Below, in pieces: positions 4,174 through 22,915 of a stretch of DNA of 42,031 bases. Both the position numbers and the translations under genes were made by a program. Each line of letters begins with the position of its first letter. Positions within the stretch are counted from its first letter, which is position 1. A model generated the notes under the pieces. That model saw only the letters and a list, made by a program, of their open reading frames with translations, searched no databases and was not told the DNA's origin. Origin of the DNA: Escherichia phage vB_EcoS-Ro145clw; the sequence record MG852086.2. The stretch is one strand, 5' to 3'.

Positions 4174-4586
4174 TGGGCTACTTTGAGGACTTAACCAAAG
4201 CGTTTGATGTGCCGTTGGTGGCCTTCGGGACCGCAAACGGCATCAGGGTTGCGCTTGAAAATATCGACGCGCCGACGTCAACCGATACGCCGTATCTGGC
4301 GAGTTACATGTTGCTGGCAGATACGGAACAGGCGGATTTGTTCTTCACCGAGCAACGCTCAGGTGTTTATCAGGTCAACATTAACTACGCGTCGGTGAAA
4401 GGTAGCGCGCCAATCAATAAAATGGCAGACTTACTTAACACGGTGTTTAAAGCAGGTAAGTCATTTTCACGTAACGACATCTGCGCCGAGGTTCAATCAG
4501 TTAGCCTGGGGCCGCTGATTGTAGAAAACGGATGGGCCAAAAGACCATTGTCAATTAACTTTATTGCATTCACCAAGAGGCTGTGA
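4173..4586 (+). CDS. tail terminator/completion protein (putative)
   Basis: 137 aa; start ATG 4173 overlapping upstream stop; SD GAGGG; positional call immediately before major tail gene. Confidence 0.4.
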   Translation: MGYFEDLTKAFDVPLVAFGTANGIRVALENIDAPTSTDTPYLASYMLLADTEQADLFFTEQRSGVYQVNINYASVKGSAPINKMADLLNTVFKAGKSFSRNDICAEVQSVSLGPLIVENGWAKRPLSINFIAFTKRL

Positions 4587-4588
4587 AT

Positions 4589-5755
4589 ATGGCTACAACT
4601 CCTTTTAAGGGCGCGAATACCGCGCAATTCTATGTGGCGGAAGTGACCCCGGGCGTAACACCAAGTAACCCGGTATGGTCGCCGTTGCGTAGCACTGGCG
4701 GCGTTCCTGCCGTAACCCGCGATGCGCTGACTTCCAACGAACTGGACGGCAGCCGTGAAACTACATCCATCCGCACTGGCAATAAGCAGGTAAGCGGGGA
4801 GTATGCCATCGAACTTAGCTCTCGTAGTCAGGATGATTTCCTGGCTGGCGCGATGACTTCTACGTGGCAGGATGGGGTAGAGATTACGGGTGCCGAAATT
4901 ACTGTCGCCCCCGCAGGTAAAACATTCACCCGCGCTGCCGGTAGCTTCATTACTGACGGTGTAGAAGTTGGTGACCTTATTGCGTTCACCGACTTAACCG
5001 GCGACAACGCAAAACCGTTTATCGTGACCGCGGTTTCTGCTCTTGTAGTTACGGGTGCGGGCATTCAGCACACGCTGACAGCAGAGACTGTAACCACCGA
5101 CGCTAAAACTGGCGATAAACTGGAAACCGGTAACGCATGTAAGACGTTCTCCATCCTGACATGGTTCAAAGGACAGTGCGGGAACCCTGACGCGTACATG
5201 TTGACCAAAGGCGTGGAAATCTCCGGTTTCACCATTGAACAGGCCGTAAACGCGATGGTGACAGGCAGCTTCCCGTTCATCGGCCTGAGTCAGGAGATTC
5301 TTACCACGCCGCCGTCTGGCTCTGATTTCTCTCAGGTGACGTTCACGGACGAGCCGTTCTCTTCTGTAGATGTGTCTGTGTTCGACGGTTCTACGCCGTT
5401 GCGTTGCGATACTCTCACTATCACCAACGATAACGGTGCTTCCGCGCAGTTCGAACTCGGCAACAGTAGCGTCGCGTTCGTGGAACGGGGGCGCGCAGCT
5501 AACACCTTTTCCATCTCCGGTAAGCTGTACGACATGACGATGATTCAGAAGTTTATCAACGAGCAGCAGGTAGAGATTAACTCTATTCTGGCGGGGGTAA
5601 ACGGGGCTATGTCTTTCAGTTTGAAACGTGCGGAACTTACGGCGGTTACGCCTGAGATTGGCGGACCTGAGTCAATCACCCAGAGCATAGAAGGACAGTC
5701 CACAGGCAATCAATATCAATCTTCTATTGTAATACAGCGTATTAGCTACGCGTAA
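4589..5755 (+). CDS. major tail (tube) protein (putative)
   Basis: 388 aa from ATG 4589 with SD AAGAGG 8 nt upstream; Thr/Ser/Gly-rich; position between completion proteins and chaperones. Confidence 0.55.
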   Translation: MATTPFKGANTAQFYVAEVTPGVTPSNPVWSPLRSTGGVPAVTRDALTSNELDGSRETTSIRTGNKQVSGEYAIELSSRSQDDFLAGAMTSTWQDGVEITGAEITVAPAGKTFTRAAGSFITDGVEVGDLIAFTDLTGDNAKPFIVTAVSALVVTGAGIQHTLTAETVTTDAKTGDKLETGNACKTFSILTWFKGQCGNPDAYMLTKGVEISGFTIEQAVNAMVTGSFPFIGLSQEILTTPPSGSDFSQVTFTDEPFSSVDVSVFDGSTPLRCDTLTITNDNGASAQFELGNSSVAFVERGRAANTFSISGKLYDMTMIQKFINEQQVEINSILAGVNGAMSFSLKRAELTAVTPEIGGPESITQSIEGQSTGNQYQSSIVIQRISYA

Positions 5756-5780: not shown

Positions 5781-6275
5781 CTATTTACCGTGGTTCTCGT
5801 GGAACCCCAAATCTCTTTCAGCAACTCTCCTCGCGGCAACTGCATCTAGTATCGTCTTAAAGCACCCGATATGTGTTTTTACGTTATTGTTGAATATCTG
5901 CGCGTACCACAACCTTTCTTTCGCGTTCCAGTAGACTCCGGTTACTCCTGATTTATTATTACGCTGTTTTGACATATTTTTATGGTTTTCCGCATTGGAC
6001 TTTTTAGCTAAGTTAAGCGGTCTATTGTTTATTCGGTCATGGTCTAGATGGTCTATTTGATCTGACGAGGTTAGCTTATTGTTAGGATTGTTTAAGTCCC
6101 AAGCTATACGGTGCGCCGCATGCCATTTACCCCGGAAAAATATCCTTCTATATCCGTCTCGCTGGACGGTACCTGCTTCCTCTCCAGCCTTAGCCCTCCC
6201 GGACCGGGTTACTCTGTTAAATATCCTTCCTGAAATTAAGTCGTATATGAAAAATTCATTCCAATCCATAATCAT
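5781..6275 (-). CDS. HNH homing endonuclease with AP2-type DNA-binding domain
   Basis: 164 aa; HNH core GKWHAAHRIAWDL...IDHLDHDRINNRPLNL; AP2-like SGVTGVYWNAKERLWYAQI; AT-rich; SD AGGAG. Confidence 0.8.
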   Translation of the reverse strand: MIMDWNEFFIYDLISGRIFNRVTRSGRAKAGEEAGTVQRDGYRRIFFRGKWHAAHRIAWDLNNPNNKLTSSDQIDHLDHDRINNRPLNLAKKSNAENHKNMSKQRNNKSGVTGVYWNAKERLWYAQIFNNNVKTHIGCFKTILDAVAARRVAERDLGFHENHGK

Positions 6276-6288
6276 CTCCTATTGTGAT

Positions 6289-6311
6289 AAGGCCCCGAAA
6301 GGGGCCTTTTT
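6289..6311 (+). terminator. second copy of the identical hairpin AAGGCCCCGAAAGGGGCCTT followed by T5 (plus-oriented terminator)
   Basis: 20/20 identity with 5760..5779; followed by TTTTT on the plus strand. Confidence 0.5.
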
Positions 6312-6312
6312 C

Positions 6313-6543
6313 TTACTCATCAATATTACTCCTGTACTCCCGTAACTTCTCCAGACTCTCAATTGCTTCCGCTAAGTCGGTTCCTGTGTCCTTGTGCCCC
6401 CGCAAGCCCATACACAATAGCTTCTTCAATGCGTGCTGTAACGCCGGGTCGCGGATGTCGAAGGCACGTAGCACGTCGTAAACGTCTACTGTCATAGTGC
6501 TGCCGTGAGTGTTTGTCATTGTGCGGTTGTATTTTGAAGTCAT
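6313..6543 (-). CDS. hypothetical protein (76 aa)
   Basis: SD GGGGAG upstream on the minus strand; preferred over the overlapping 6359..6550 frame. Confidence 0.4.
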   Translation of the reverse strand: MTSKYNRTMTNTHGSTMTVDVYDVLRAFDIRDPALQHALKKLLCMGLRGHKDTGTDLAEAIESLEKLREYRSNIDE

Positions 6544-6556
6544 AAATCAATCTCCC

Positions 6557-7027
6557 CTACTCATGGTTTTCATGAAAACCGTATTTACTCTCGGCGGCTT
6601 TACGCGCGGCAACCGCTACATCAAAATCGTCGTAAAGCCCTAAATGCACTTGTTTGTAGTTAACTTTTATAAACGCGCGCCACTTACCCGCGGCTTTGTG
6701 GAAACTTACACCTGTAGCCCCGGATTTATTTATCTTTCTCATAGTTTTATTTTTACTGTCCCCTGTATTGTCGGTGGCGCGTAGATTTTCTATTCTATTG
6801 TCTAGCCTGTTATGGTTTATGTGGTCTATTTGAGTTTTCCTGTCTAAGTCGCATTTATTATAAAGACACCATGCTATGCGGTGGACATACACTGTTTTAC
6901 CACCCATACCGCAGCACAGATAGCCTCTTACACCAACCGTACCAACCTCAGCACCAGTAGATATCCTGGTAACCTGCCCCGTCTCAGGGCAGTATTTAAA
7001 TTGTTTTGAAACATCAAGATACTTCAT
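6557..7027 (-). CDS. HNH homing endonuclease with AP2-type DNA-binding domain (paralog of 5781..6275)
   Basis: 156 aa; HNH core HRIAWCLYN...IDHINHNRLDNRIENL; AP2-like SGATGVSFHKAAGKWRAFI; shares C-terminal GFHENH with the other HNH. Confidence 0.8.
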   Translation of the reverse strand: MKYLDVSKQFKYCPETGQVTRISTGAEVGTVGVRGYLCCGMGGKTVYVHRIAWCLYNKCDLDRKTQIDHINHNRLDNRIENLRATDNTGDSKNKTMRKINKSGATGVSFHKAAGKWRAFIKVNYKQVHLGLYDDFDVAVAARKAAESKYGFHENHE

Positions 7028-8154
7028 CTTAGCATCTCCGGTGAGATTGAAAGCCTACCTACTTCCCCGAACTCTGAACTATAGGTTATGACATTAGCGG
7101 ACCTCTTAGACATCCACCCGCCGCGAGAAGCATATGCATCTTTCGCCGCGAGAGTGCGATGTTGTTCCACTACCATATTCCTACTTTCTACAATCTTTTG
7201 ATGGTGGAGATGCCCGACATGTGCGTAACTGTACTCGCTTTCGCCAAATGCTTTTCTGAACTTAGCTATCATAATGGGTTCGACCACCTCAAACCGGCAT
7301 TTATGCCCGTGTGTAAAGAACAGTGTCGTTTTACCGTGTTGCACCATCTTGTAAACATCCGGCGACGTATCGACGAACACACGCGGCTCATTGTCGTACA
7401 GCGTACTGAACATCTCAGCCAACCAAATCATTCCGCTTTCGTCGTGGTTCCCTTGCACGATAAGCAAGCGAACATTTTTATGCTTAACCAGCGCCATACC
7501 AACAACACGGCGTACCATACGAATCATGTAGCGGACTAGTTTCTGGTAGCGCGTGTCCGCATCAAGAACATGACCGCTCGCTGGCGTAACGGCATCCAGA
7601 CTATCGAAGTGTGCGAAGTCCCCGAGCAGATTAATGACTCCTGTTCCTGCATCTGGCGCTTTCTGGAATGCCGCATCGAACCATCGGGAGAACAGGTCTT
7701 CAGCAATCTTCATATCCCAGTCGTCGCCGCTCTCGTCGGCCCAGGCCAGCATGCCGAGATGGAAATCAGATACCGTGTAAAGATTGAGTAGTTTGTCGTC
7801 ACGTTTGGCTCGAGTCGCTTTAACAGGCGCAACTGGGGTAATCTCTGACTTCATGCCTTCAACCACGGCTTTCATCAACTCAACCTGACGTTCGGCATCG
7901 GTGTCGGTCTTAACCCATTGCAACTTAGTGTTGCCGAACTCGTCTACCAGTGACGACGTTCCTTTAATCTTGTAGCCGTCTGGCACAAGGTGACTAACAT
8001 CACGACCATGACCTACGCCTTTCTTCGCCAGCTTCGCTTTACGGATACGAATAACGCGGTCTGAGATGCCGTATTTACGGGCAATGTCGATATTCTTCAT
8101 CCCGACGTTCAATTCTTCCTGTAACTGTTCGTCGGTTATTTTCTTCTGGGCCAT
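7024..8154 (-). CDS. N-terminal HTH domain fused to calcineurin-like metallophosphoesterase
   Basis: 376 aa; HTH-like IDIARKYGISDRVIRIRKAKL; MPP motifs SDFHLG, GDFAHFD, QGNHDES, THGH, HVGHLHH in canonical order; SD GAGGAAG. Confidence 0.65.
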   Translation of the reverse strand: MAQKKITDEQLQEELNVGMKNIDIARKYGISDRVIRIRKAKLAKKGVGHGRDVSHLVPDGYKIKGTSSLVDEFGNTKLQWVKTDTDAERQVELMKAVVEGMKSEITPVAPVKATRAKRDDKLLNLYTVSDFHLGMLAWADESGDDWDMKIAEDLFSRWFDAAFQKAPDAGTGVINLLGDFAHFDSLDAVTPASGHVLDADTRYQKLVRYMIRMVRRVVGMALVKHKNVRLLIVQGNHDESGMIWLAEMFSTLYDNEPRVFVDTSPDVYKMVQHGKTTLFFTHGHKCRFEVVEPIMIAKFRKAFGESEYSYAHVGHLHHQKIVESRNMVVEQHRTLAAKDAYASRGGWMSKRSANVITYSSEFGEVGRLSISPEMLR

Positions 8155-8192
8155 GCTTACTTCCTCGTGTTTAGGATTTGTCCTATACTAGC

Positions 8193-8384
8193 TCACTTCT
8201 CGTTAACATTCGAGTTGCACGCCCAGATTAAAATAAATACCCACGGCAGCAGAACCCAACCAAGAAACAGGTTAGCCATGAATATCGCCAACTTCGCTTT
8301 ATGGTTACGGAAATATGCAACCAGGAAAGGCGCGAAATAAGCGAGCAGTGCAAACAGAATTAAGGAAACTGGTAAACTTGACAT
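8193..8384 (-). CDS. small membrane protein, superinfection-immunity (Imm)-like family (putative)
   Basis: 63 aa from the second ATG (SD AAGGGG); two hydrophobic segments; YFAPFLVAYFRNHK...NLFLGWVLLPW resembles the Imm-type superinfection immunity family as remembered. Confidence 0.45.
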   Translation of the reverse strand: MSSLPVSLILFALLAYFAPFLVAYFRNHKAKLAIFMANLFLGWVLLPWVFILIWACNSNVNEK

Positions 8385-8414
8385 TTTAAACCCCTTCATT
8401 GTTGGTGTAAGTGA

Positions 8415-8443
8415 ATAGTACCCTATTATATTGGGGTGTGCAA
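8415..8443 (-). promoter_or_regulatory. sigma70-like promoter TTGCAC-N17-TACTAT with embedded AATAG-N4-CTATT inverted repeat (site A)
   Basis: Minus strand reads TTGCACACCCCAATATAATAGGGTACTATTCACTT; nearly identical to sites at 29385, 30614 and 40699. Confidence 0.5.
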
Positions 8444-8551
8444 GTAATGTGATAGAATAATTTTGCGCCTAGTGTCGCACACGAAAAGCGGGTGGTTCCC
8501 GTCTGGCGCATTTATCGATAACCTGTAACCTCTTAACCAAAGGATTAAAGA

Positions 8552-8971
8552 ATGAAACTTTCTGATTTTTATTTCGAAGAGAAAGCACTGGTAGGCAAGA
8601 AAATGCCGATTCTGCTGCCGAATGGCGAAGACTCCGGCGAGTGGCTTAATGTTGTAAGCCCTGATGCGGATGCCGCCGTTAAAGCGGGGCGTGCTTTCAT
8701 TATCGCGTACCGTCGCGGACTGGCGCGTTTTGAAGAACTGGAAAAAACCGCTAAAGCCTCCGGCGACTATACAGAATATAACCTGGCGATTAATGAACTG
8801 GCGGAAGACCTCAACCGGCAACTCGCGGCTGAAGTCGTAAACGGCTGGAGCTTCGACGACGAGCCTTTCTCTAAGGAAGCGTTTAACAAATTGCTCGACC
8901 AGTTCAAAGGGCTTGGAACCCAGGTAGCCGCGTTCCATAACGCTGAGCGCAAAGCATTACAGGAAAAGTAG
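8552..8971 (+). CDS. tail assembly chaperone (gpG-like, putative)
   Basis: 139 aa acidic ORF with SD AAGGA immediately upstream of the tape-measure gene; followed by a -1 frame overlapping ORF. Confidence 0.5.
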   Translation: MKLSDFYFEEKALVGKKMPILLPNGEDSGEWLNVVSPDADAAVKAGRAFIIAYRRGLARFEELEKTAKASGDYTEYNLAINELAEDLNRQLAAEVVNGWSFDDEPFSKEAFNKLLDQFKGLGTQVAAFHNAERKALQEK

Positions 8972-9336
8972 ACGCGCTGTACAGGTTCGCCACCTACGAG
9001 TTTGTGGATAAGCATAAAATCAGAGAGTTTGATTCTATAGCTGACGGACATGAACAGGCGCTTATCGCGATGGGTGTAATCGATAAGAAAAAACGTGCAG
9101 CGCGACGGGGTGGGCCAGAATGTCCGCCCCTTTTCATATCCACCTTTGAGACGTATTGCGACATTAAGTTTACGCGACACGTGCGCGAGGACGCTGTAGT
9201 ATTGTTTGCAAGAGAATCCGTTACGTGGCAAGACCTGAAAGCCTATCTCGACGTTACACAAAAACAGCTTAGCCTGTTCGAGATAGACATTATCATGGGC
9301 TTAGAAGCAATCTTTGAAGGTAGAAACCATGGCTGA
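8947..9336 (+). CDS. -1 frame extension ORF (gpT-like; candidate G-T frameshift product)
   Basis: Frame -1 relative to 8552..8971 is open from 8947 to TGA at 9334..9336; overlaps the last 8 codons of the chaperone gene; candidate slip region AGGAAAAG at 8961..8968; independent GTG at 9004 also possible. Confidence 0.4.
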   Translation, partial: AQSITGKVDALYRFATYEFVDKHKIREFDSIADGHEQALIAMGVIDKKKRAARRGGPECPPLFISTFETYCDIKFTRHVREDAVVLFARESVTWQDLKAYLDVTQKQLSLFEIDIIMGLEAIFEGRNHG

Positions 9337-11599
9337 TATCGCTAGCTTGATAGTACGAGTATCCGCAACCGGCGTCGATAAAGTCACATCACAACTGAAC
9401 GGGCTTACTAAAGCCGCAGGCGCTGCGGCTGCCGCCGTTGTCAGCCTGGAAACCGCTAAGCAGGTGTTCAGTGCGCTGGTGGACTCCCAGCGAAACTTCG
9501 ATAAGCTGAACTCCGGCCTCATCACAATGACCGGGAGTGCTGAGAACGCGGCTAAGGCTTTCAGCGTCCTGCAACAGTTCGCGAAAGAAACCCCGTACGG
9601 CCTCAACCAGGCGGTGGAAGGCTTTACTAAACTTGTAGCCCTCGGCCTGAACCCCAGCAAAGAGGCGTTAATCTCCTACGGCAACACCGCCGCTGCGATG
9701 GGTAAAGACCTTAATCAGATGATTGAGGCCGTGGCGGACGCCAGTACATTTGAATTTGAGCGACTGAAAGAGTTCGGTATTAAGTCTTCCCAACAGGCAG
9801 ATACCGTTTCGTTCACGTTCCGCGGCGTAACGACCACAGTTAAGAAGAACTCCGAAGAAATTCAGAAATACCTGCTAAACATCGGTAACACTGATTTCGC
9901 CGGGGCGATGGAAACGCGTTCGAAAACCCTTGACGGGCAGTTATCTAGCCTCGCGGACTCCTTTGACGGCCTTGTACTTGCGGTGGCGCAATCAGGTTTC
10001 GGCGACGCCGTAGGTGAGCAAGCTGCGACAGCGGAAGATGCCATCACGGCCCTAACCGATGCCATCGCGTCTAATGAGATAGCAGCCACGCTCCAGGATT
10101 GGGTGACACTGTTCAATGAATCGTTCAAGTTTATTTCTGACGCTTTGAACGATCTGGCATACGACACCGAGGACAAATCCGTGGATATGTCCGACTCGCT
10201 GGGGACTATCCCGGACGCTATTCGTGAGTGGTTGCCTGACATTCAGCAGACATTCCACGAGGTTATTGCGTGGTTCCAGCGCATTGACGATTACGCGGTC
10301 GCGTTAGGCCAGACCCTCGCCGACGTGTTCGACCCGAGCAAAACGGCAGCGCTAACATTTAAAAACCTGACCGCAGAGGCCGACGCCGCATACGCCGCCA
10401 GCATAAAACGCGCAGAGGCCGAATCACAGGCTATCACCAACAGGTCTAAGCAGCGTAAGAAAGAAATTGAGGAACAGCGCAAGCAGTATGACGAGCGCAA
10501 GAAGCAAGAAATTGACTTAGCCAGCCTTGTTAATAAAAAGAGCGGAAATGGTGGAACCGGAAATACCAACGACAAAGACGCGAAAGCCGCCGCTAAGAAA
10601 GCGGAGCAATTGCGTAAACAGGCCCAGGATTATCTCGACACTTTGGCCCGTCAGAACAACGACGAATTAAAGGCTATTGACGCACAGGAACAGCAGAAAC
10701 TGGCTAAGGCAAAAGAGTTCTACAACCAGGGCGCGTTGGCTCTGAAAGAATACGAGCAAGCAAAAACGGCTATCGTCCTCGAAGCCGGACAAGCACGGCA
10801 GGAAGAGCTGGATAAGCGAGAGAAAGAACGGCAGGAAAAGCAGCAGAAAGGTGAAGACTTCATGGCTCAGATTATGGGTCAGAATGCCGCCGAGCTTGAG
10901 CTTCTGGAAATTCAGGAACAACAAAAACTGGACGTTGCGGACCGATACCGCGAACAGAACCTTATTAATGAGGAGCAGTACCAGGCTGCGGTTAATGCCA
11001 TAAATGACCAATATGCTTTGAAGCGCGCCAACGCTACAGGTAACGCTTTCGGGATGATGGCGGATAACATGAAGGCCTCACTAGGGGAGGCGTCGTCCGC
11101 GTACAAAGCATTCGCTATTGCTCAGGCCACAATCGCCACATACACCTCCGCTATTGAGGCTTATAAATCAGCGTCCGCTATCCCCGTGATTGGCTGGGTT
11201 ATGGGGCCAATTGCCGCCGCCGCCGCCGTAGCCGCCGGTATGGCTAACATAGGTAAGATTCGTTCGGCTCGTGAACAGGGTGGTCAATTATCCGCGGGCC
11301 AGATGTCCACCATCGCTGAACGCGGTAAACCGGAGGTTATCATGCCTGCGGGGGCATCGCGTGTGCGCACCGCGCAGCAGATGAAAGAGATTATGGGGCA
11401 AAACGGCGGAAACTCCGGCGGTGACAGCGTGACAATTGTCAACAACACCACCGGGCGAGTTGATTCTGCGGTAACAGAACGTGATGACGAAGGGCGTTTA
11501 CGTATTATAATCAGTGAAACAGTATCGGCGGCGTTACAGGACAGCAACAGCGCAATCTCTAAGTCACGCCGTGCTACACGAAACCAGCCGGGGTATTAA
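9329..11599 (+). CDS. tail tape measure protein
   Basis: 756 aa from ATG 9329 (SD GAAGG); long coiled-coil middle with repeated EQQKL segments; C-terminal hydrophobic Ala/Gly-rich segment; follows chaperone pair. Confidence 0.8.
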   Translation: MADIASLIVRVSATGVDKVTSQLNGLTKAAGAAAAAVVSLETAKQVFSALVDSQRNFDKLNSGLITMTGSAENAAKAFSVLQQFAKETPYGLNQAVEGFTKLVALGLNPSKEALISYGNTAAAMGKDLNQMIEAVADASTFEFERLKEFGIKSSQQADTVSFTFRGVTTTVKKNSEEIQKYLLNIGNTDFAGAMETRSKTLDGQLSSLADSFDGLVLAVAQSGFGDAVGEQAATAEDAITALTDAIASNEIAATLQDWVTLFNESFKFISDALNDLAYDTEDKSVDMSDSLGTIPDAIREWLPDIQQTFHEVIAWFQRIDDYAVALGQTLADVFDPSKTAALTFKNLTAEADAAYAASIKRAEAESQAITNRSKQRKKEIEEQRKQYDERKKQEIDLASLVNKKSGNGGTGNTNDKDAKAAAKKAEQLRKQAQDYLDTLARQNNDELKAIDAQEQQKLAKAKEFYNQGALALKEYEQAKTAIVLEAGQARQEELDKREKERQEKQQKGEDFMAQIMGQNAAELELLEIQEQQKLDVADRYREQNLINEEQYQAAVNAINDQYALKRANATGNAFGMMADNMKASLGEASSAYKAFAIAQATIATYTSAIEAYKSASAIPVIGWVMGPIAAAAAVAAGMANIGKIRSAREQGGQLSAGQMSTIAERGKPEVIMPAGASRVRTAQQMKEIMGQNGGNSGGDSVTIVNNTTGRVDSAVTERDDEGRLRIIISETVSAALQDSNSAISKSRRATRNQPGY

Positions 11600-20362: not shown

Positions 20363-20511
20363 TAGCGCAGAACCCAAGTAAGGAAAGCCCCTCCTAGAAC
20401 GGCAATACCGACAAACTTAAAGAACAGACCGTAACAGAACATCGCAGCTATTCCCGCGCCGGATAACAGTGCGAGCATGGTTACTGTCGCCCAAAATACA
20501 AACATTGTCAT
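20362..20511 (-). CDS. small hydrophobic membrane protein (49 aa)
   Basis: SD GAGGGG 8 nt upstream; stop overlaps VRR-NUC start (TAATG); almost entirely hydrophobic. Confidence 0.35.
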   Translation of the reverse strand: MTMFVFWATVTMLALLSGAGIAAMFCYGLFFKFVGIAVLGGAFLTWVLR

Positions 20512-20593
20512 AATACGCACCCCTCACGTTTCGTATGCGCAATGCCACAGCGCGGACAGATTCGACAGTCTTCTTCATAGAACCAGTAAATTT

Positions 20594-20725
20594 TCATTCC
20601 AGCACCCACAGATAAATTGCGATTAACATACACAATACGGCAACCATCATTCCGTATTGACCTTCGTGACAGTAAACCCCGGCGGCGAATCCCGCCAGCG
20701 CCGTAACAATCAGTTTACTTAGCAT
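20594..20725 (-). CDS. small hydrophobic membrane protein (43 aa)
   Basis: SD GAGAGGTGG upstream immediately after polymerase stop; hydrophobic. Confidence 0.35.
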   Translation of the reverse strand: MLSKLIVTALAGFAAGVYCHEGQYGMMVAVLCMLIAIYLWVLE

Positions 20726-20737
20726 TAGAACCACCTC

Positions 20738-22915
20738 TCACTTAGCGTACCGGTACATTTCGCTGCCTTCTGCTACAAGAGGGAATCCCTCAGCCCATTC
20801 AGGTAATTCGCACATCAATCGTTCGAGTTCAGCCACATTGTATTCAGGCGAATCTGGCGTCTCGCAGATAATTTCATCGTGTACATGAAGTACAATCGGG
20901 TAGCCGTTTGCTTCAACGTTAAGTAGCGCATTAGCCAGCAAGTCACGGCACAGTGCCTGGGTACAGTTTTCCACCAGTTTCCCGGAGTACGTGTACTGGA
21001 AGCCCCACTGACGAGTTAACTGGTTTTCACCTTGGTACTTGATGCGCACGTTAGTAGAAACTTTCCCGTCTTCGTCCGTCTCTTTCGATACACTTAAACC
21101 TACGCCAGGGTAGGACATTACGCGGCCTGACGGCAACGTCATGCGCAACCACCAACCAGCTACCTTGTTGCCGTTGTTATCTGTTTCTACGTTGCGTGAA
21201 AACTTAACGCCACGAGGACCAGCGGTGAACTCTTTCCCTGGATTACGTATTGCCGCCATAGCTGCGTCTTCGATATCACGCCAGAAAGCTACAGTCTCAG
21301 GGTGCGACTCGCGCCACATGCGCTTGATAGCGTCACATGTACGCCAGACTTTCTTATCCAGAATATATGATGGTCGGTCATCTTTTTCACCAGGACGCGG
21401 TGGCCGCTTGGCTTCCTGAATACGCGCCCACTCGTACCCACGTGCGGTAGCGGCCCAGATGTGGTCAGGGAAAGTACCGTCCATTGTTTTAGCCATATCA
21501 ACCAGGTCAAGGCCGAGGTTCTTGGCGAACTGAACGAAAGCCCCTACGCCGCCAGCGTAGCCGAGTCCCAACTCGCAAGCTTTGCCTATCTGGCGAAGGT
21601 CTTTACGTTCTTTCTTAATGTAATCCGGTTCCAGGCCAAACATCTTGCCCGCCGTTACGCAATAAATATCCAGCCCGGCCCGGAAAGTATCGAGCGCGGC
21701 TTCTTCGCCCGCCAGCCATGCCAGCCCGCGACCTTCAACGTTAGAGTAATCTGCAACAACAAACTTGTGCCCTGCTTCCGGGATAATGCAGCTGCGCACC
21801 GTAGATGCCGTTAGCTTGGCTACATCAAACCGACGATGCGCACGTCCTTTCAGCAACGCAGAAATCCCTTTATCCAGCTCATCGTCATGATAGTACCCGC
21901 GGGCCAGGTTCTGTGGCTGGAAGCCTTTACCGGCGAATCGTAGCGTACGTTTAGCCCCGCCGTACTGGATGCAACCGCGGCGGCGGTCGTCAGAAGAACG
22001 ACCCAGCAATAACGGTGTGTATTTCGTTGACGCGGTGGACGCCGCTCCGAGGCGCATTTCGACAATATCACGGGCATCGTCGGGTAAATCCTCGTCAGCC
22101 AGCAGGTCAAACAACGTTGCTTTTTGCGCGTTATGAATGCGGTTCGCAGGGGCCAGTTCCTGCAATGCCGGTAGAAAGTCTTTTCCGGTTAATGAACAGC
22201 CGAATTTACGTTGAGATTCCTCCTGCAACTCCCCCTTATGCCGTGTTATGGCTTCAATAGCGGCTTCTGCCAGCGCAATATCAACCTTGAACCCGCGGTC
22301 GTTGATTAACTGGTCCAGTTCCAGTACGCGGTCCTCGAACTCAGAGTTGCCCCACGACGGCATTTTTTGAAACACTTCACGCATCGAAGTGATATCACTA
22401 ATAGCGTACTTGATGAATAACGCCCACTCCTCCGGGTGCGTCTCAGACGTATAGCGGCGTATTTTGTAATTCTTCGGGGTCGGCTTGGTGAATCTCTTTA
22501 TTAACGCCTTACCGCGTTTGTCCTTGGCGTTCTCTGCAGATACTTCCAGCACTTCACACAAAACAGCCAATTTCCCCGGCAGCGCGTGGCGAAAAGCACA
22601 GGTCATTGTATCTATAACGCTGCTTACAGGTATGTCATAGCCCCAGCAGTTGCGGATAACTAAGCGGTCAAACATATTGAAGTTATGACCTACAATCTTA
22701 ATATCCCCTCTCATTGCCTTACGCAGGCCAACTTTCAGGTCGCGCGGCATATCGCTGCCGTCTGTGCAGTCCCAGCAACGCACCTCGCCGTCGTCGAACG
22801 CGTAGGTGCATATCAGAATTTCTGTAGATGGGTGTTCGGCGTAGGCATAACTGCCGACAACCGTTATGTCTAATTCACAAAAAGTTTCTGTATCAAGATA
22901 AAGTAATTCGTTCAT
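20738..22915 (-). CDS. family A DNA polymerase with N-terminal 3'-5' exonuclease domain
   Basis: 725 aa; exo motifs YLDTETF and VGHNFNMFD; pol motif A ADYSNVEGRGLAWLAGEE, motif B RQIGKACELGLGYAGG, motif C VLHVHDEIICE. Confidence 0.85.
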   Translation of the reverse strand: MNELLYLDTETFCELDITVVGSYAYAEHPSTEILICTYAFDDGEVRCWDCTDGSDMPRDLKVGLRKAMRGDIKIVGHNFNMFDRLVIRNCWGYDIPVSSVIDTMTCAFRHALPGKLAVLCEVLEVSAENAKDKRGKALIKRFTKPTPKNYKIRRYTSETHPEEWALFIKYAISDITSMREVFQKMPSWGNSEFEDRVLELDQLINDRGFKVDIALAEAAIEAITRHKGELQEESQRKFGCSLTGKDFLPALQELAPANRIHNAQKATLFDLLADEDLPDDARDIVEMRLGAASTASTKYTPLLLGRSSDDRRRGCIQYGGAKRTLRFAGKGFQPQNLARGYYHDDELDKGISALLKGRAHRRFDVAKLTASTVRSCIIPEAGHKFVVADYSNVEGRGLAWLAGEEAALDTFRAGLDIYCVTAGKMFGLEPDYIKKERKDLRQIGKACELGLGYAGGVGAFVQFAKNLGLDLVDMAKTMDGTFPDHIWAATARGYEWARIQEAKRPPRPGEKDDRPSYILDKKVWRTCDAIKRMWRESHPETVAFWRDIEDAAMAAIRNPGKEFTAGPRGVKFSRNVETDNNGNKVAGWWLRMTLPSGRVMSYPGVGLSVSKETDEDGKVSTNVRIKYQGENQLTRQWGFQYTYSGKLVENCTQALCRDLLANALLNVEANGYPIVLHVHDEIICETPDSPEYNVAELERLMCELPEWAEGFPLVAEGSEMYRYAK

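What the first reader, a model, noticed from the sequence alone, without database searches (positions are those of the whole stretch)
8947..9336. Candidate -1 programmed frameshift between tail chaperone ORFs
The ORF in the -1 frame relative to the chaperone gene 8552..8971 is open from 8947 to 9336 and overlaps the last eight chaperone codons, the classic gpG/gpGT arrangement upstream of a tape-measure gene. The only A-rich run inside the overlap is AGGAAAAG (8961..8968, reading CAG GAA AAG TAG in the zero frame), which is not a canonical XXXYYYZ heptamer, so the slip mechanism, if any, would be unusual.
Basis: partly seen in the sequence, partly recalled or inferred. Interest (0 to 1): 0.5.

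Follow-up and report, generated by a model that had tools for sequence, protein, structure and literature searches.

The report
Tail chaperone G/GT frameshift site
This is the usual phage trick of making a long and a short tail-assembly chaperone from one gene by a -1 ribosomal slip, here on a slightly off-consensus site (G_GAA_AAG next to the stop codon) that sister phages already have annotated, so it is real but ordinary.

Summary
The window is Escherichia phage vB_EcoS-Ro145c2YLVW (Kagunavirus, Guernseyvirinae). Gene 8552..8971 is a tail assembly chaperone (G). The -1 frame is open from 8947 to 9336, encodes a Phage_TAC_18 domain (T), and ends on the tape-measure start.

In 73 distinct relatives' junction contexts, down to about 41% T-protein identity, the zero frame always ends in NNA_AAG. 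The stop follows directly in 72. Third-codon-position variability switches from the zero frame to the -1 frame exactly at this junction. GTG 9004 is not conserved, and ATG 9070 would leave out 34 conserved codons. No conserved start, downstream RNA structure or upstream SD-like stimulator was found.

When the 5' codon is GAA, as here, the preceding base is always G, although that codon encodes six different amino acids. This indicates tandem re-pairing: tRNA-Glu GAA to GGA, tRNA-Lys AAG to AAA. Rare relatives carry the canonical G_GGA_AAG or A_AAA_AAG at the same position.

The predicted products are G (139 aa, 15.6 kDa) and GT (261 aa, 29.6 kDa). RefSeq K1G, K1H and K1ind1 and GenBank Shemara already annotate the joined CDS. 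PHROG 15027 is a fusion-length profile. There is no experimental proof. Interest is low.

The parts
8552..8971 (+). Tail assembly chaperone gene G, zero frame: 139 aa, 15.6 kDa, stop TAG 8969-8971. It has an AAGGA Shine-Dalgarno sequence upstream.
   Evidence: ORF list. Pfam Phage_TAC_4 at 21.7 bits against a cut-off of 21.1. PHROG 15027 at 5e-69 and PHROG 313 at 7e-28, both 'tail assembly chaperone'. Anti-SD duplex energy -5.4 kcal/mol. Mass.
8962..8968 (+). Slip site G_GAA_AAG, with core A_AAG at 8965-8968. tRNA-Lys re-pairs from AAG to AAA, and tRNA-Glu re-pairs from GAA to GGA with a G.U pair in the middle position.
   Evidence: A_AAG is invariant in 73 distinct junction contexts. GAA is always preceded by G (50 of 50), across seven different preceding codons. 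In L098 and L102 a -1-frame stop lies one codon 5' of AAA, which confines the shift to C_GCA_AAG.
8969..8971 (+). G stop codon TAG immediately 3' of the slip site. It is the probable pause element. The next base is A.
   Evidence: The stop is adjacent to AAG in 72 of 73 contexts: TAG 46, TAA 25, TGA 1. The base after the stop is A or C in 70 of 72. The one exception, L071, has AAG TTA TAG.
8947..8968 (+). The stretch in which a -1 shift is possible in this phage: the -1 frame is open and the zero frame is still coding.
   Evidence: The preceding -1-frame stop is TGA 8944-8946.
8968..9336 (+). T segment, read in the -1 frame from GTA 8968 to TGA 9334-9336. It adds 122 aa, giving GT = 261 aa and 29.6 kDa, with junction ...ALQEK|VDALYRFA...
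   Evidence: Pfam Phage_TAC_18 at 1e-18. PHROG 15027 profile positions 138-259 of 259. tblastn matches in 493 phage records reach back to residues 1-7 of the -1 ORF. Conservation runs from KV.AL onward. -1-frame wobble periodicity starts at the junction.
9329..11599 (+). Tape measure protein gene. Its ATG 9329 overlaps the T stop by 8 nt (ATGGCTGA).
   Evidence: Pfam TMP_3 at 1e-9 and 38.8 bits, below the 41-bit cut-off. Annotated as the tape measure protein in MH051334 and in relatives.
4589..5755 (+). Tail tube (major tail) gene, the upstream partner in the canonical tube-G-GT-TMP order. Here it is separated from G by a 2.8 kb block of minus-strand genes.
   Evidence: Pfam Phage_tube_2 at 2.8e-37. 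GenBank start. Intervening genes.

Best explanation
A programmed -1 ribosomal frameshift at G_GAA_AAG (8962-8968), the last two sense codons of the tail assembly chaperone gene, produces two proteins from one start codon.

Most ribosomes terminate at TAG 8969 and release G (139 aa). A minority slip back one base: tRNA-Lys re-pairs from AAG to AAA, and tRNA-Glu re-pairs from GAA to GGA with a G.U pair in the middle position. These ribosomes read GUA next and continue to TGA 9334, producing GT (261 aa).

Shown here: the anatomy, the family assignment, the invariance of A_AAG plus stop, the constraint on the base before GAA, the frame switch in coding constraint at the junction, and the lack of a conserved start or RNA structure.

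Inferred:
- That the shift actually occurs, and at a low percentage.
- That the adjacent, weak-context stop codon (UAG-A) supplies the pause, giving the tRNAs time to slip either during translocation or afterwards from the E/P or P site.
- That G binds the tape measure protein and T recruits the tube protein, by analogy with lambda gpG/gpGT.
For: Family and gene order:
- G matches Phage_TAC_4 and PHROGs 15027 and 313. T matches Phage_TAC_18. The TMP gene follows immediately.
- PHROG 15027 is a 259-position profile. G covers positions 1-138 and T covers 138-259, so it was built from fusion-length proteins joined at this K.

Conservation in relatives:
- All 13 annotated loci and all IMG/VR loci examined have T in the -1 frame, open across the G stop.
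- In 73 distinct contexts A_AAG is invariant and the stop is adjacent in 72. Positions 0 to +5 of the site have zero entropy, against 1-1.9 bits for their neighbours.
- The amino acid of the 5' codon varies (Glu, Ala, Ser, Gly, Lys), but its third base is always A.
- GAA is always preceded by G, across seven different codons for six amino acids. The background frequency of G at third codon positions nearby is 0.24.
- RP180 has the lambda heptamer G_GGA_AAG, and L076 and L078 have the dnaX heptamer A_AAA_AAG, at the same position.
- Wobble periodicity switches from the zero frame to the -1 frame at the junction.

No independent start:
- GTG 9004 is GTC or GTT in Bas74 and K1ind1.
- ATG 9070 lies 34 conserved codons downstream, and the corresponding codon is Ile in FSL SP-031.
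- Anti-SD duplex energies upstream of GTG 9004 and ATG 9070 are at background level, -2.2 and -2.5 kcal/mol.

Prior annotation and literature:
- Joined CDSs are annotated in RefSeq K1ind1, K1G and K1H and in GenBank Shemara.
- A_AAG is the most shift-prone tetramer in E. coli (PMC4066793).
- NNA_AAG sites are used by IS1222 and occur in B. subtilis cdd (PMC5009743).
Against: - There is no experimental evidence for a fusion protein in any Guernseyvirinae phage that I could find.
- No conserved downstream structure exists (consensus energy -0.44 kcal/mol; single-sequence z-score -1.35). I saw no conserved upstream SD-like stimulator by eye in the upstream flanks listed.
- Without a stimulator, Z_ZZN tetramers were barely above background in E. 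coli, 0.147% against 0.112%.
- The exact sequence G GAA AAG was used in vitro as a poorly slippery control and gave mainly zero-frame product (PMC6924986).
- Many GenBank records annotate T as a separate gene starting at CTG or TTG 5 nt after the stop.
- One genome paper on a related phage says there is no canonical slippery sequence (PMC6776780).
Confidence: 0.85

Rival explanations
1. T is a separate protein. It is made by independent initiation, or by termination-reinitiation after the G stop, at CTG 8977, GTG 9004 or ATG 9070. No fusion is made.
For: - Many depositors annotate it this way. Bas74, Ent1, Golestan and Schulenburg start T at the CTG or TTG 5 nt after the stop. MH051334 starts it at ATG 9070.
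- AGGA lies 12 nt upstream of CTG 8977, with a duplex energy of -4.3 kcal/mol.
- In the Jerseyvirus lineage that codon is TTG, a legitimate start.
- Pfam Phage_TAC_18 covers only residues 40-124 of the -1 ORF.
Against: - CTG is not a normal bacterial start codon, and it is the form found in most lineages.
- GTG 9004 is not conserved.
- ATG 9070 would leave 34 conserved -1-frame codons untranslated, yet they show coding periodicity from the junction onward.
- The SD-like AGGA is absent in the GCA and TCA lineages.
- This model does not explain the nucleotide-level invariance of A_AAG or of the G before GAA.
- It does not explain why T never drifts out of the -1 frame relative to G.
Confidence: 0.08
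2. The fusion is made by RNA polymerase slippage on the A run (one extra A... strictly, one fewer base read) rather than by the ribosome.
For: The site contains an A run, and the fusion product would be nearly identical. L076 and L078 carry A6.
Against: - The run is only A4 in this phage and A3 in the GCA and TCA lineages. From general knowledge, productive transcriptional slippage in bacteria needs runs of about 7-9 or more.
- The invariant G after AAA and the G before GAA are what tRNA re-pairing predicts, not what polymerase slippage predicts.
Confidence: 0.02
3. The overlap is incidental. T is a decaying or non-functional ORF and only G matters.
For: None beyond the absence of experimental data.
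Against: T is conserved at 41-55% protein identity across about 490 phage genomes, with -1-frame wobble periodicity. It belongs to curated chaperone families.
Confidence: 0.01

Closest known systems
Bacteriophage lambda gpG/gpGT tail assembly chaperones (slip site G_GGA_AAG; Levin 1993 and Xu 2004, 2013, 2014, as summarised in PMC5009743)
   Same: - Two overlapping ORFs lie directly upstream of the tape measure gene, with T in the -1 frame and without its own start.
- The A-site codon is AAG, slipping to AAA on the single E. coli tRNA-Lys.
- No RNA structure is needed, and a low-level shift is expected.
- One relative, RP180, carries exactly the lambda heptamer at the same position.
   Different: - The P-site codon is GAA rather than GGA, so re-pairing to GGA has a G.U pair in the second position.
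- The slip site is the very end of G, abutting the stop codon.
- The tube gene is not adjacent; 2.8 kb of minus-strand genes intervene.
- G and T belong to other Pfam TAC families (Phage_TAC_4 and Phage_TAC_18) than lambda's.
Annotated ORF22A/22B (K1G), ORF19A/19B (K1H) and ORF21A/21B (K1ind1) in RefSeq, the 'tail assembly chaperone frameshift product' of Salmonella phage Shemara, and PHROG 15027
   Same: These are the same genes in the same subfamily. K1ind1 is identical to the window over the whole slip region. The joined CDS spans G start to T stop. The fusion-length PHROG profile has its junction at the same Lys.
   Different: They are annotations only. The record for this phage (MH051334) lists two 'hypothetical proteins' and truncates T to ATG 9070. 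None of the sources I could read describes the slip-site logic or tests it.
NNA_AAG hexanucleotide -1 frameshift sites (IS1222 G_CGA_AAG; Bacillus subtilis cdd A_CGA_AAG; Licznar 2003, as reviewed in PMC5009743)
   Same: The core A_AAG is read by tRNA-Lys, with a 5' codon that cannot fully re-pair. The GCA_AAG and TCA_AAG lineages of this family are of exactly this type. In cdd the site also lies close to the end of the ORF (my recollection).
   Different: According to that literature as I recall it, IS1222 and cdd rely on a downstream structure or an upstream SD-like stimulator. None is conserved here. The window's own variant, G_GAA_AAG, keeps partial P-site re-pairing and is under selection for it.
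E. coli dnaX A_AAA_AAG
   Same: The same A-site event (AAG to AAA) on the same tRNA. Two relatives, L076 and L078, have this exact heptamer.
   Different: dnaX uses an upstream SD-like sequence and a downstream stem-loop and shifts at about 50% (per PMC6924986, and general knowledge). Neither stimulator is conserved here, and a far lower rate is expected.
'Shifty stop' or post-translocation slippage with a stop codon in the A site (Weiss 1987; Horsfield 1995; from memory, apart from the citation in PMC5009743). [quoted passage not shown]
   Same: The slip site directly abuts the zero-frame stop in 72 of 73 contexts, usually in a weak A or C +4 context.
   Different: Stop dependence has not been demonstrated here. 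The adjacency could simply reflect where the G protein ends.

Membership tests
gpG/gpGT-type frameshifted tail assembly chaperone pair (Xu, Hendrix & Duda 2004) | The gene pair lies between the major tail (tube) gene and the tape measure gene, immediately upstream of the latter. | tested here: met
   T's stop overlaps the TMP ATG 9329. The tube gene at 4589..5755 is upstream but separated by a 2.8 kb minus-strand insert. Relatives have the same order.
gpG/gpGT-type frameshifted tail assembly chaperone pair (Xu, Hendrix & Duda 2004) | The second ORF overlaps the 3' end of the first in the -1 frame and has no start codon or RBS of its own. | tested here: met
   -1 frame, 25-nt overlap. The -1 relation holds in all loci examined. 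There is no conserved ATG, GTG or TTG, and SD scores are at background level.
gpG/gpGT-type frameshifted tail assembly chaperone pair (Xu, Hendrix & Duda 2004) | A slippery sequence lies inside the overlap and is conserved among relatives. | tested here: met
   The strict X_XXY_YYZ form is not met. A near-cognate heptamer, G_GAA_AAG, with an invariant A_AAG core is present and conserved in 73 of 73 contexts.
gpG/gpGT-type frameshifted tail assembly chaperone pair (Xu, Hendrix & Duda 2004) | Sequence membership in tail assembly chaperone families. | tested here: met
   Phage_TAC_4 at 21.7 bits against a cut-off of 21.1 (marginal), and Phage_TAC_18 at 67.5 bits against 27. PHROG 15027 at 5e-69 and 3e-70, and PHROG 313 at 7e-28.
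gpG/gpGT-type frameshifted tail assembly chaperone pair (Xu, Hendrix & Duda 2004) | The helical 'spiral' chaperone fold of the G domain. | tested here: inconclusive
   The AlphaFold2 model of G from a 5-sequence alignment had pLDDT 55 and pTM 0.32. It was mostly helical but too poor for a fold search. There was no PDB relative by sequence.
gpG/gpGT-type frameshifted tail assembly chaperone pair (Xu, Hendrix & Duda 2004) | Both G and GT are actually made, at a fixed ratio with G in large excess. Both are needed for tail assembly and absent from virions. | not testable with these tools
   This needs protein analysis and genetics.
NNA_AAG hexanucleotide / A_AAG tetranucleotide -1 sites (IS1222, cdd) | A_AAG in the zero frame at the shift point, in a host with a single tRNA-Lys for AAA and AAG. 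| tested here: met
   A_AAG is at 8965-8968 and invariant. The single E. coli tRNA-Lys is stated in PMC5009743 and PMC6924986.
NNA_AAG hexanucleotide / A_AAG tetranucleotide -1 sites (IS1222, cdd) | A flanking stimulator: a downstream structure or an upstream SD-like sequence at about 10 nt. | tested here: not met
   There is no conserved downstream structure. By eye, no SD-like element is conserved in the 20 nt upstream of the site in 25 representatives. The AGGA in this phage overlaps the slip site itself and is absent in the GCA and TCA lineages.
Stop-codon-assisted ('shifty stop') slippage | The stop codon lies immediately 3' of the slipping codon, and efficiency depends on termination rate. 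| tested here: inconclusive
   Adjacency is met in 72 of 73 contexts, with an A or C +4 base in 70 of 72. Dependence on termination rate cannot be tested here.

The most novel reading that the evidence does not exclude
The conserved signal across Guernseyvirinae may be A_AAG followed directly by a weak-context stop codon, not a heptamer plus RNA structure. That would make it a natural, family-wide case of stop-codon-paced -1 slippage of tRNA-Lys, either from the P site or from the E and P sites after translocation. On this reading the 5' codon only tunes the rate. The G-to-GT ratio would then be coupled to release-factor activity in the host.
Probability: 0.3. Interest if true: 0.45.

Novelty: already known. 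Interest (0 to 1): 0.22.

Why it matters
In practice this is an annotation fix. The GenBank record of this phage, and most of the roughly 490 related genomes, list G and T as separate or hypothetical genes, often with an invented CTG or TTG start or a truncated ATG start. They should carry a joined G-GT CDS with the shift at A_AAG.

For mechanism, the family offers a natural series of slip-site variants at one homologous position: G_GAA_AAG, N_GCA_AAG, G_TCA_AAG, G_GGA_AAG and A_AAA_AAG, all abutting a stop codon and without a conserved RNA structure. That series could be used to ask how much P-site re-pairing and termination pausing each contribute to low-level -1 frameshifting in E. coli. 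It does not open a new question. The gpG/gpGT paradigm and A_AAG slippage are both well established.

Tried and rejected
- **Downstream stimulatory RNA.** Folding 100 nt after the site gave z = -1.35. RNAalifold on 21 divergent relatives gave -0.44 kcal/mol, three pairs and no covariation. Rejected.
- **Rfam scan of 8400..9500.** It found no frameshift element. The only hit was an int-alpA-like motif in the leader.
- **Upstream SD-like stimulator.** None is conserved by eye in the upstream flanks. The AGGA at 8961-8964 is specific to the GAA lineages and sits too close to act as a -1 stimulator.
- **Independent starts.** GTG 9004, ATG 9070 and CTG 8977 were examined and rejected as the main route.
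- **Transcriptional slippage.** Rejected because the A run is too short.
- **The search for homologous proteins with the predicted fusion.** It returned five partial hits and no fusion-length protein, which was uninformative.
- **AlphaFold2 of G.** The PDB sequence search found nothing relevant.
- **Papers not held.** The Jerseyvirinae taxonomy paper (PMID 25663216, cited in the Schulenburg record) and Xu et al. 2004 were not in the library. I could not read what they say about this site.
- **Join coordinates.** The exact join coordinates of the RefSeq CDSs are not shown by the tool. I inferred the junction from the PHROG 15027 profile coordinates.

Full report
**What the window is.** The region 8400..9500 is 100% identical to Escherichia phage vB_EcoS-Ro145c2YLVW (MH051334 / NC_073322), a Kagunavirus of the subfamily Guernseyvirinae. 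It is 93-96% identical to K1G, K1ind1-3, RP180, Bas74 and many others. In its GenBank record the two ORFs in question are 'hypothetical protein', and the second one is annotated only from ATG 9070.

**Check of the observation.**
- ORF 8552..8971 (ATG start, 139 aa, stop TAG 8969-8971) is present.
- The -1 frame has TGA at 8944-8946 and is then open from 8947 to TGA 9334-9336.
- AGGAAAAG is at 8961..8968 and reads CAG GAA AAG TAG in the zero frame. GTG is at 9004.
- The tape measure ATG at 9329 overlaps the end of the -1 ORF.
- A 129-codon open frame has a chance probability of about 0.002 at this composition. The comparative evidence below is much stronger than that figure.

**What the ORFs are.**
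- The first ORF matches Pfam Phage_TAC_4, marginally (21.7 bits against a 21.1 cut-off). It matches PHROG 15027 (5e-69) and PHROG 313 (7e-28), both 'tail assembly chaperone'.
- The -1 ORF matches Pfam Phage_TAC_18 (1e-18) and PHROG 15027 (3e-70).
- The next gene matches TMP_3. Gene 4583..5755 is a Phage_tube_2 tail tube protein.
- PHROG 15027 is a 259-position profile. G aligns to positions 1-138, and the -1 product, starting at the slip-site Lys, aligns to 138-259. So the profile was built from fusion-length proteins joined at exactly this point.

**Comparative anatomy of the junction.** tblastn with the -1 ORF finds 493 phage records: Kagunavirus, Jerseyvirus, Cornellvirus, Serratia Eta and Tsm2, Klebsiella, Shewanella and others. 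Identity falls to about 41%, and alignments reach back to residues 1-7 of the ORF, upstream of any possible start. I read 13 annotated loci and about 77 IMG/VR loci.
- In every one, T is in the -1 frame relative to G and is open across the G stop.
- Across 73 distinct sequence contexts the zero frame ends in NNA AAG. In 72 the stop follows at once: TAG 46, TAA 25, TGA 1. L071 has AAG TTA TAG.
- The length of the -1 overlap varies from 3 to 201 nt upstream of the AAA codon. In L098 and L102 a -1-frame stop lies one codon before AAA, so the shift can only occur on C_GCA_AAG.
- Among 24 representatives, the six bases A AAG TA have zero entropy, while flanking positions have 1-1.9 bits.
- The highest-entropy codon position is zero-frame position 3 upstream of the site and -1-frame position 3 from the first codons downstream. 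Purifying selection on protein sequence therefore changes frame exactly at A_AAG.
- The T alignment shows conserved residues from the junction onward: KV.AL..FA.W.F......FD.I..GH.A.L.

**No independent start.**
- GTG 9004 is GTC in Bas74 and GTT in K1ind1, and is GTC, GTT, ATA or ATC elsewhere.
- The codon that several depositors use as the start, 5 nt after the stop, is CTG in most lineages and TTG only in the Jerseyvirus/Golestan group.
- ATG 9070 lies 34 conserved codons downstream, and the corresponding codon is Ile in FSL SP-031.
- Anti-SD duplex energies are -2.2 kcal/mol for GTG 9004 and -2.5 for ATG 9070, against a window background mean of -2.0. G's own start scores -5.4 and the TMP start -5.0.

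**How the slip probably works.**
- The 5' codon is GAA in 50 contexts, GCA in 18, AAA in 2, TCA in 1 and GGA in 1. The amino acid changes, but the third base A does not.
- With GAA, the preceding base is G in 50 of 50 contexts. The preceding codon is CAG, TCG, ATG, TTG, CTG, GCG or AAG (six amino acids). The G frequency at nearby third codon positions is 0.24.
- With GCA, the preceding base is C, A or G.
- This pattern fits tandem slippage on G_GAA_AAG. tRNA-Lys moves from AAG to the cognate AAA. tRNA-Glu moves from GAA to GGA, keeping positions 1 and 3 and forming G.U in the middle.
- The GCA and TCA lineages are pure NNA_AAG hexanucleotide sites. RP180 (G_GGA_AAG) and L076 and L078 (A_AAA_AAG) carry the canonical lambda and dnaX heptamers at the homologous position.
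- PMC5009743 describes Z_ZZN as the minimal -1 motif. It describes NNA_AAG sites in IS1222 and B. subtilis cdd, and G_GA as a recognised non-identical X_XX.
- PMC4066793 ranks A_AA.G as the most efficient tetramer in E. coli: up to 5.6% with a pseudoknot, but barely above background without a stimulator.
- PMC10885494 lists a 'twofour' motif and notes tRNA-Glu re-pairing to GGA through G.U.
- PMC6924986 used G GAA AAG itself as a weakly slippery control and obtained mainly zero-frame product.

**What supplies the pause.** A low shift rate is therefore expected, as in lambda. I found no conserved downstream structure, no conserved upstream SD-like element by eye, and no Rfam frameshift element. 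The only conserved flanking feature is the adjacent stop codon, usually followed by A or C (70 of 72 contexts). My inference is that slow termination provides the pause, so the shift can happen during or after translocation of the Glu and Lys tRNAs. This step is not shown. Either route gives the same product...ALQEK-VDALYRFA..., 261 aa and 29.6 kDa, beside G at 139 aa and 15.6 kDa.

**More distant relatives.** They keep the -1 architecture with other slip sites. Vibrio phage 2.117.O has T_TTT_TTC. Serratia phage Tlacuache has candidate CGA_AAG and A_AAA sites.

**Comparison with what is known.**
- This is the lambda gpG/gpGT arrangement (PMC5009743).
- It is already annotated as a joined CDS in RefSeq K1ind1 (ORF21A/B), K1G (ORF22A/B) and K1H (ORF19A/B), and as 'tail assembly chaperone frameshift product' in Salmonella phage Shemara.
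- K1ind1 is identical to the window throughout the slip region.
- The Shelanagig (Jerseyvirus) announcement states that the slippery sequence is present (PMC6763656). The Shashou announcement says there is no canonical slippery sequence (PMC6776780).
- Most other records, including this phage's own, annotate two separate genes.
- I found no experimental test. The finding is therefore real and correctly interpreted but already known at the level of prediction. I rate it 'already known' with low interest.
- What the analysis adds is the family-wide logic of the site: the invariant A_AAG plus stop, the selected G before GAA, and the natural series of 5'-codon variants.

**Limits.** The structure prediction of G was too poor to test the chaperone fold (pLDDT 55). 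There was no PDB relative by sequence. The large protein search returned no fusion-length entries.

**Side observations.**
- A GC-rich hairpin followed by a T run lies inside the T ORF at 9107..9130. Relatives keep it, with compensatory changes in the outer stem pairs.
- The 5' leader of G carries an Rfam int-alpA-like motif at 8462..8526. It scores 31.7 bits here and reaches the gathering score in Golestan and Bas70.
- Two HNH_3 endonuclease ORFs, a metallophosphatase-type exonuclease gene and an Imm-like gene lie on the minus strand between the tube and chaperone genes.

Noticed in passing
window 9107..9130 (+), with T run to 9140: A terminator-like hairpin, GGGGTGGGC-cagaat-GTCCGCCCC followed by TTTTCATATC (-17.9 kcal/mol), lies inside the T (-1 frame) ORF over the conserved GPECP peptide. 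It is about 140 nt 3' of the slip site and 200 nt 5' of the TMP start. Many relatives keep it, with compensatory changes in the outer pairs (AAAGGGGC/GCCCCTTT, AGAGGGGC/GCCCCTCT, AACGGGGC/GCCCCGTT), followed by ATTTTTAT. The covariation score is 0.231 against 0.109 +/- 0.026 for shuffles (0 of 500 reached it). The Jerseyvirus lineage lacks the T run. It could be a partial terminator or an mRNA 3' stabiliser that sets G against TMP dosage. It is too far away to be a classical frameshift stimulator.
   Followed up: partly
window 8462..8526 (+): Rfam int-alpA RNA motif (RF02996) in the leader, 26 nt upstream of the chaperone gene ATG. It scores 31.7 bits here (gathering score 35.8, E = 2e-4). The same position in relatives reaches the gathering score: Golestan L005 at 36.6 bits and Bas70 L007 at 35.8 bits. 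Seven more loci give weaker hits. Its role in the G-GT-TMP operon is unknown.
   Followed up: partly
window 5781..8399 (-): The tail tube gene and the chaperone gene are separated by a minus-strand block: two HNH_3 endonuclease ORFs (5781..6275 and 6557..7027), a small ORF (6313..6543), a Metallophos_2 'DNA repair exonuclease' (7024..8154) and an Imm_superinfect protein (8193..8399). K1ind1 has a polynucleotide kinase next to the exonuclease instead of the HNH ORF, so the HNH genes look like mobile insertions.
   Followed up: partly
window 9070..9336 and 8552..8971 (GenBank MH051334 20999..21265 and 20481..20900): The deposited annotation of this phage calls both chaperone ORFs 'hypothetical protein' and starts T at ATG 9070, which omits 34 conserved codons. 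Other records start T at a CTG or TTG 5 nt after the G stop. Only K1G, K1H and K1ind1 (RefSeq) and Shemara carry the joined CDS.
   Followed up: yes
L043/L108 (Raoultella phage RP180) 798..807; L076 and L078 798..807; L071 798..810: Natural slip-site variants occur at the homologous position. RP180 has the lambda heptamer G_GGA_AAG. Two metagenomic relatives have the dnaX heptamer A_AAA_AAG. L071 is the only context in which the stop is one codon further on (AAG TTA TAG).
   Followed up: yes
L111 (Vibrio phage 2.117.O) 1550..1590; L112 (Serratia phage Tlacuache) 1595..1632: The most distant G homologues (28-32% identity) also have a -1 ORF of about 122 aa running to the tape measure start, but with other candidate slip sites: T_TTT_TTC in the Vibrio phage, and CGA_AAG or A_AAA in Tlacuache. 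Both are annotated as separate hypothetical proteins.
   Followed up: partly
window 8974..8979: The codons GCG CTG (Ala-Leu) just after the junction are almost invariant at their third positions across 24 divergent relatives (entropy 0), unlike other -1-frame wobble positions nearby (1-1.9 bits). This could reflect codon preference or an unrecognised 3' context effect on the shift.
   Followed up: no
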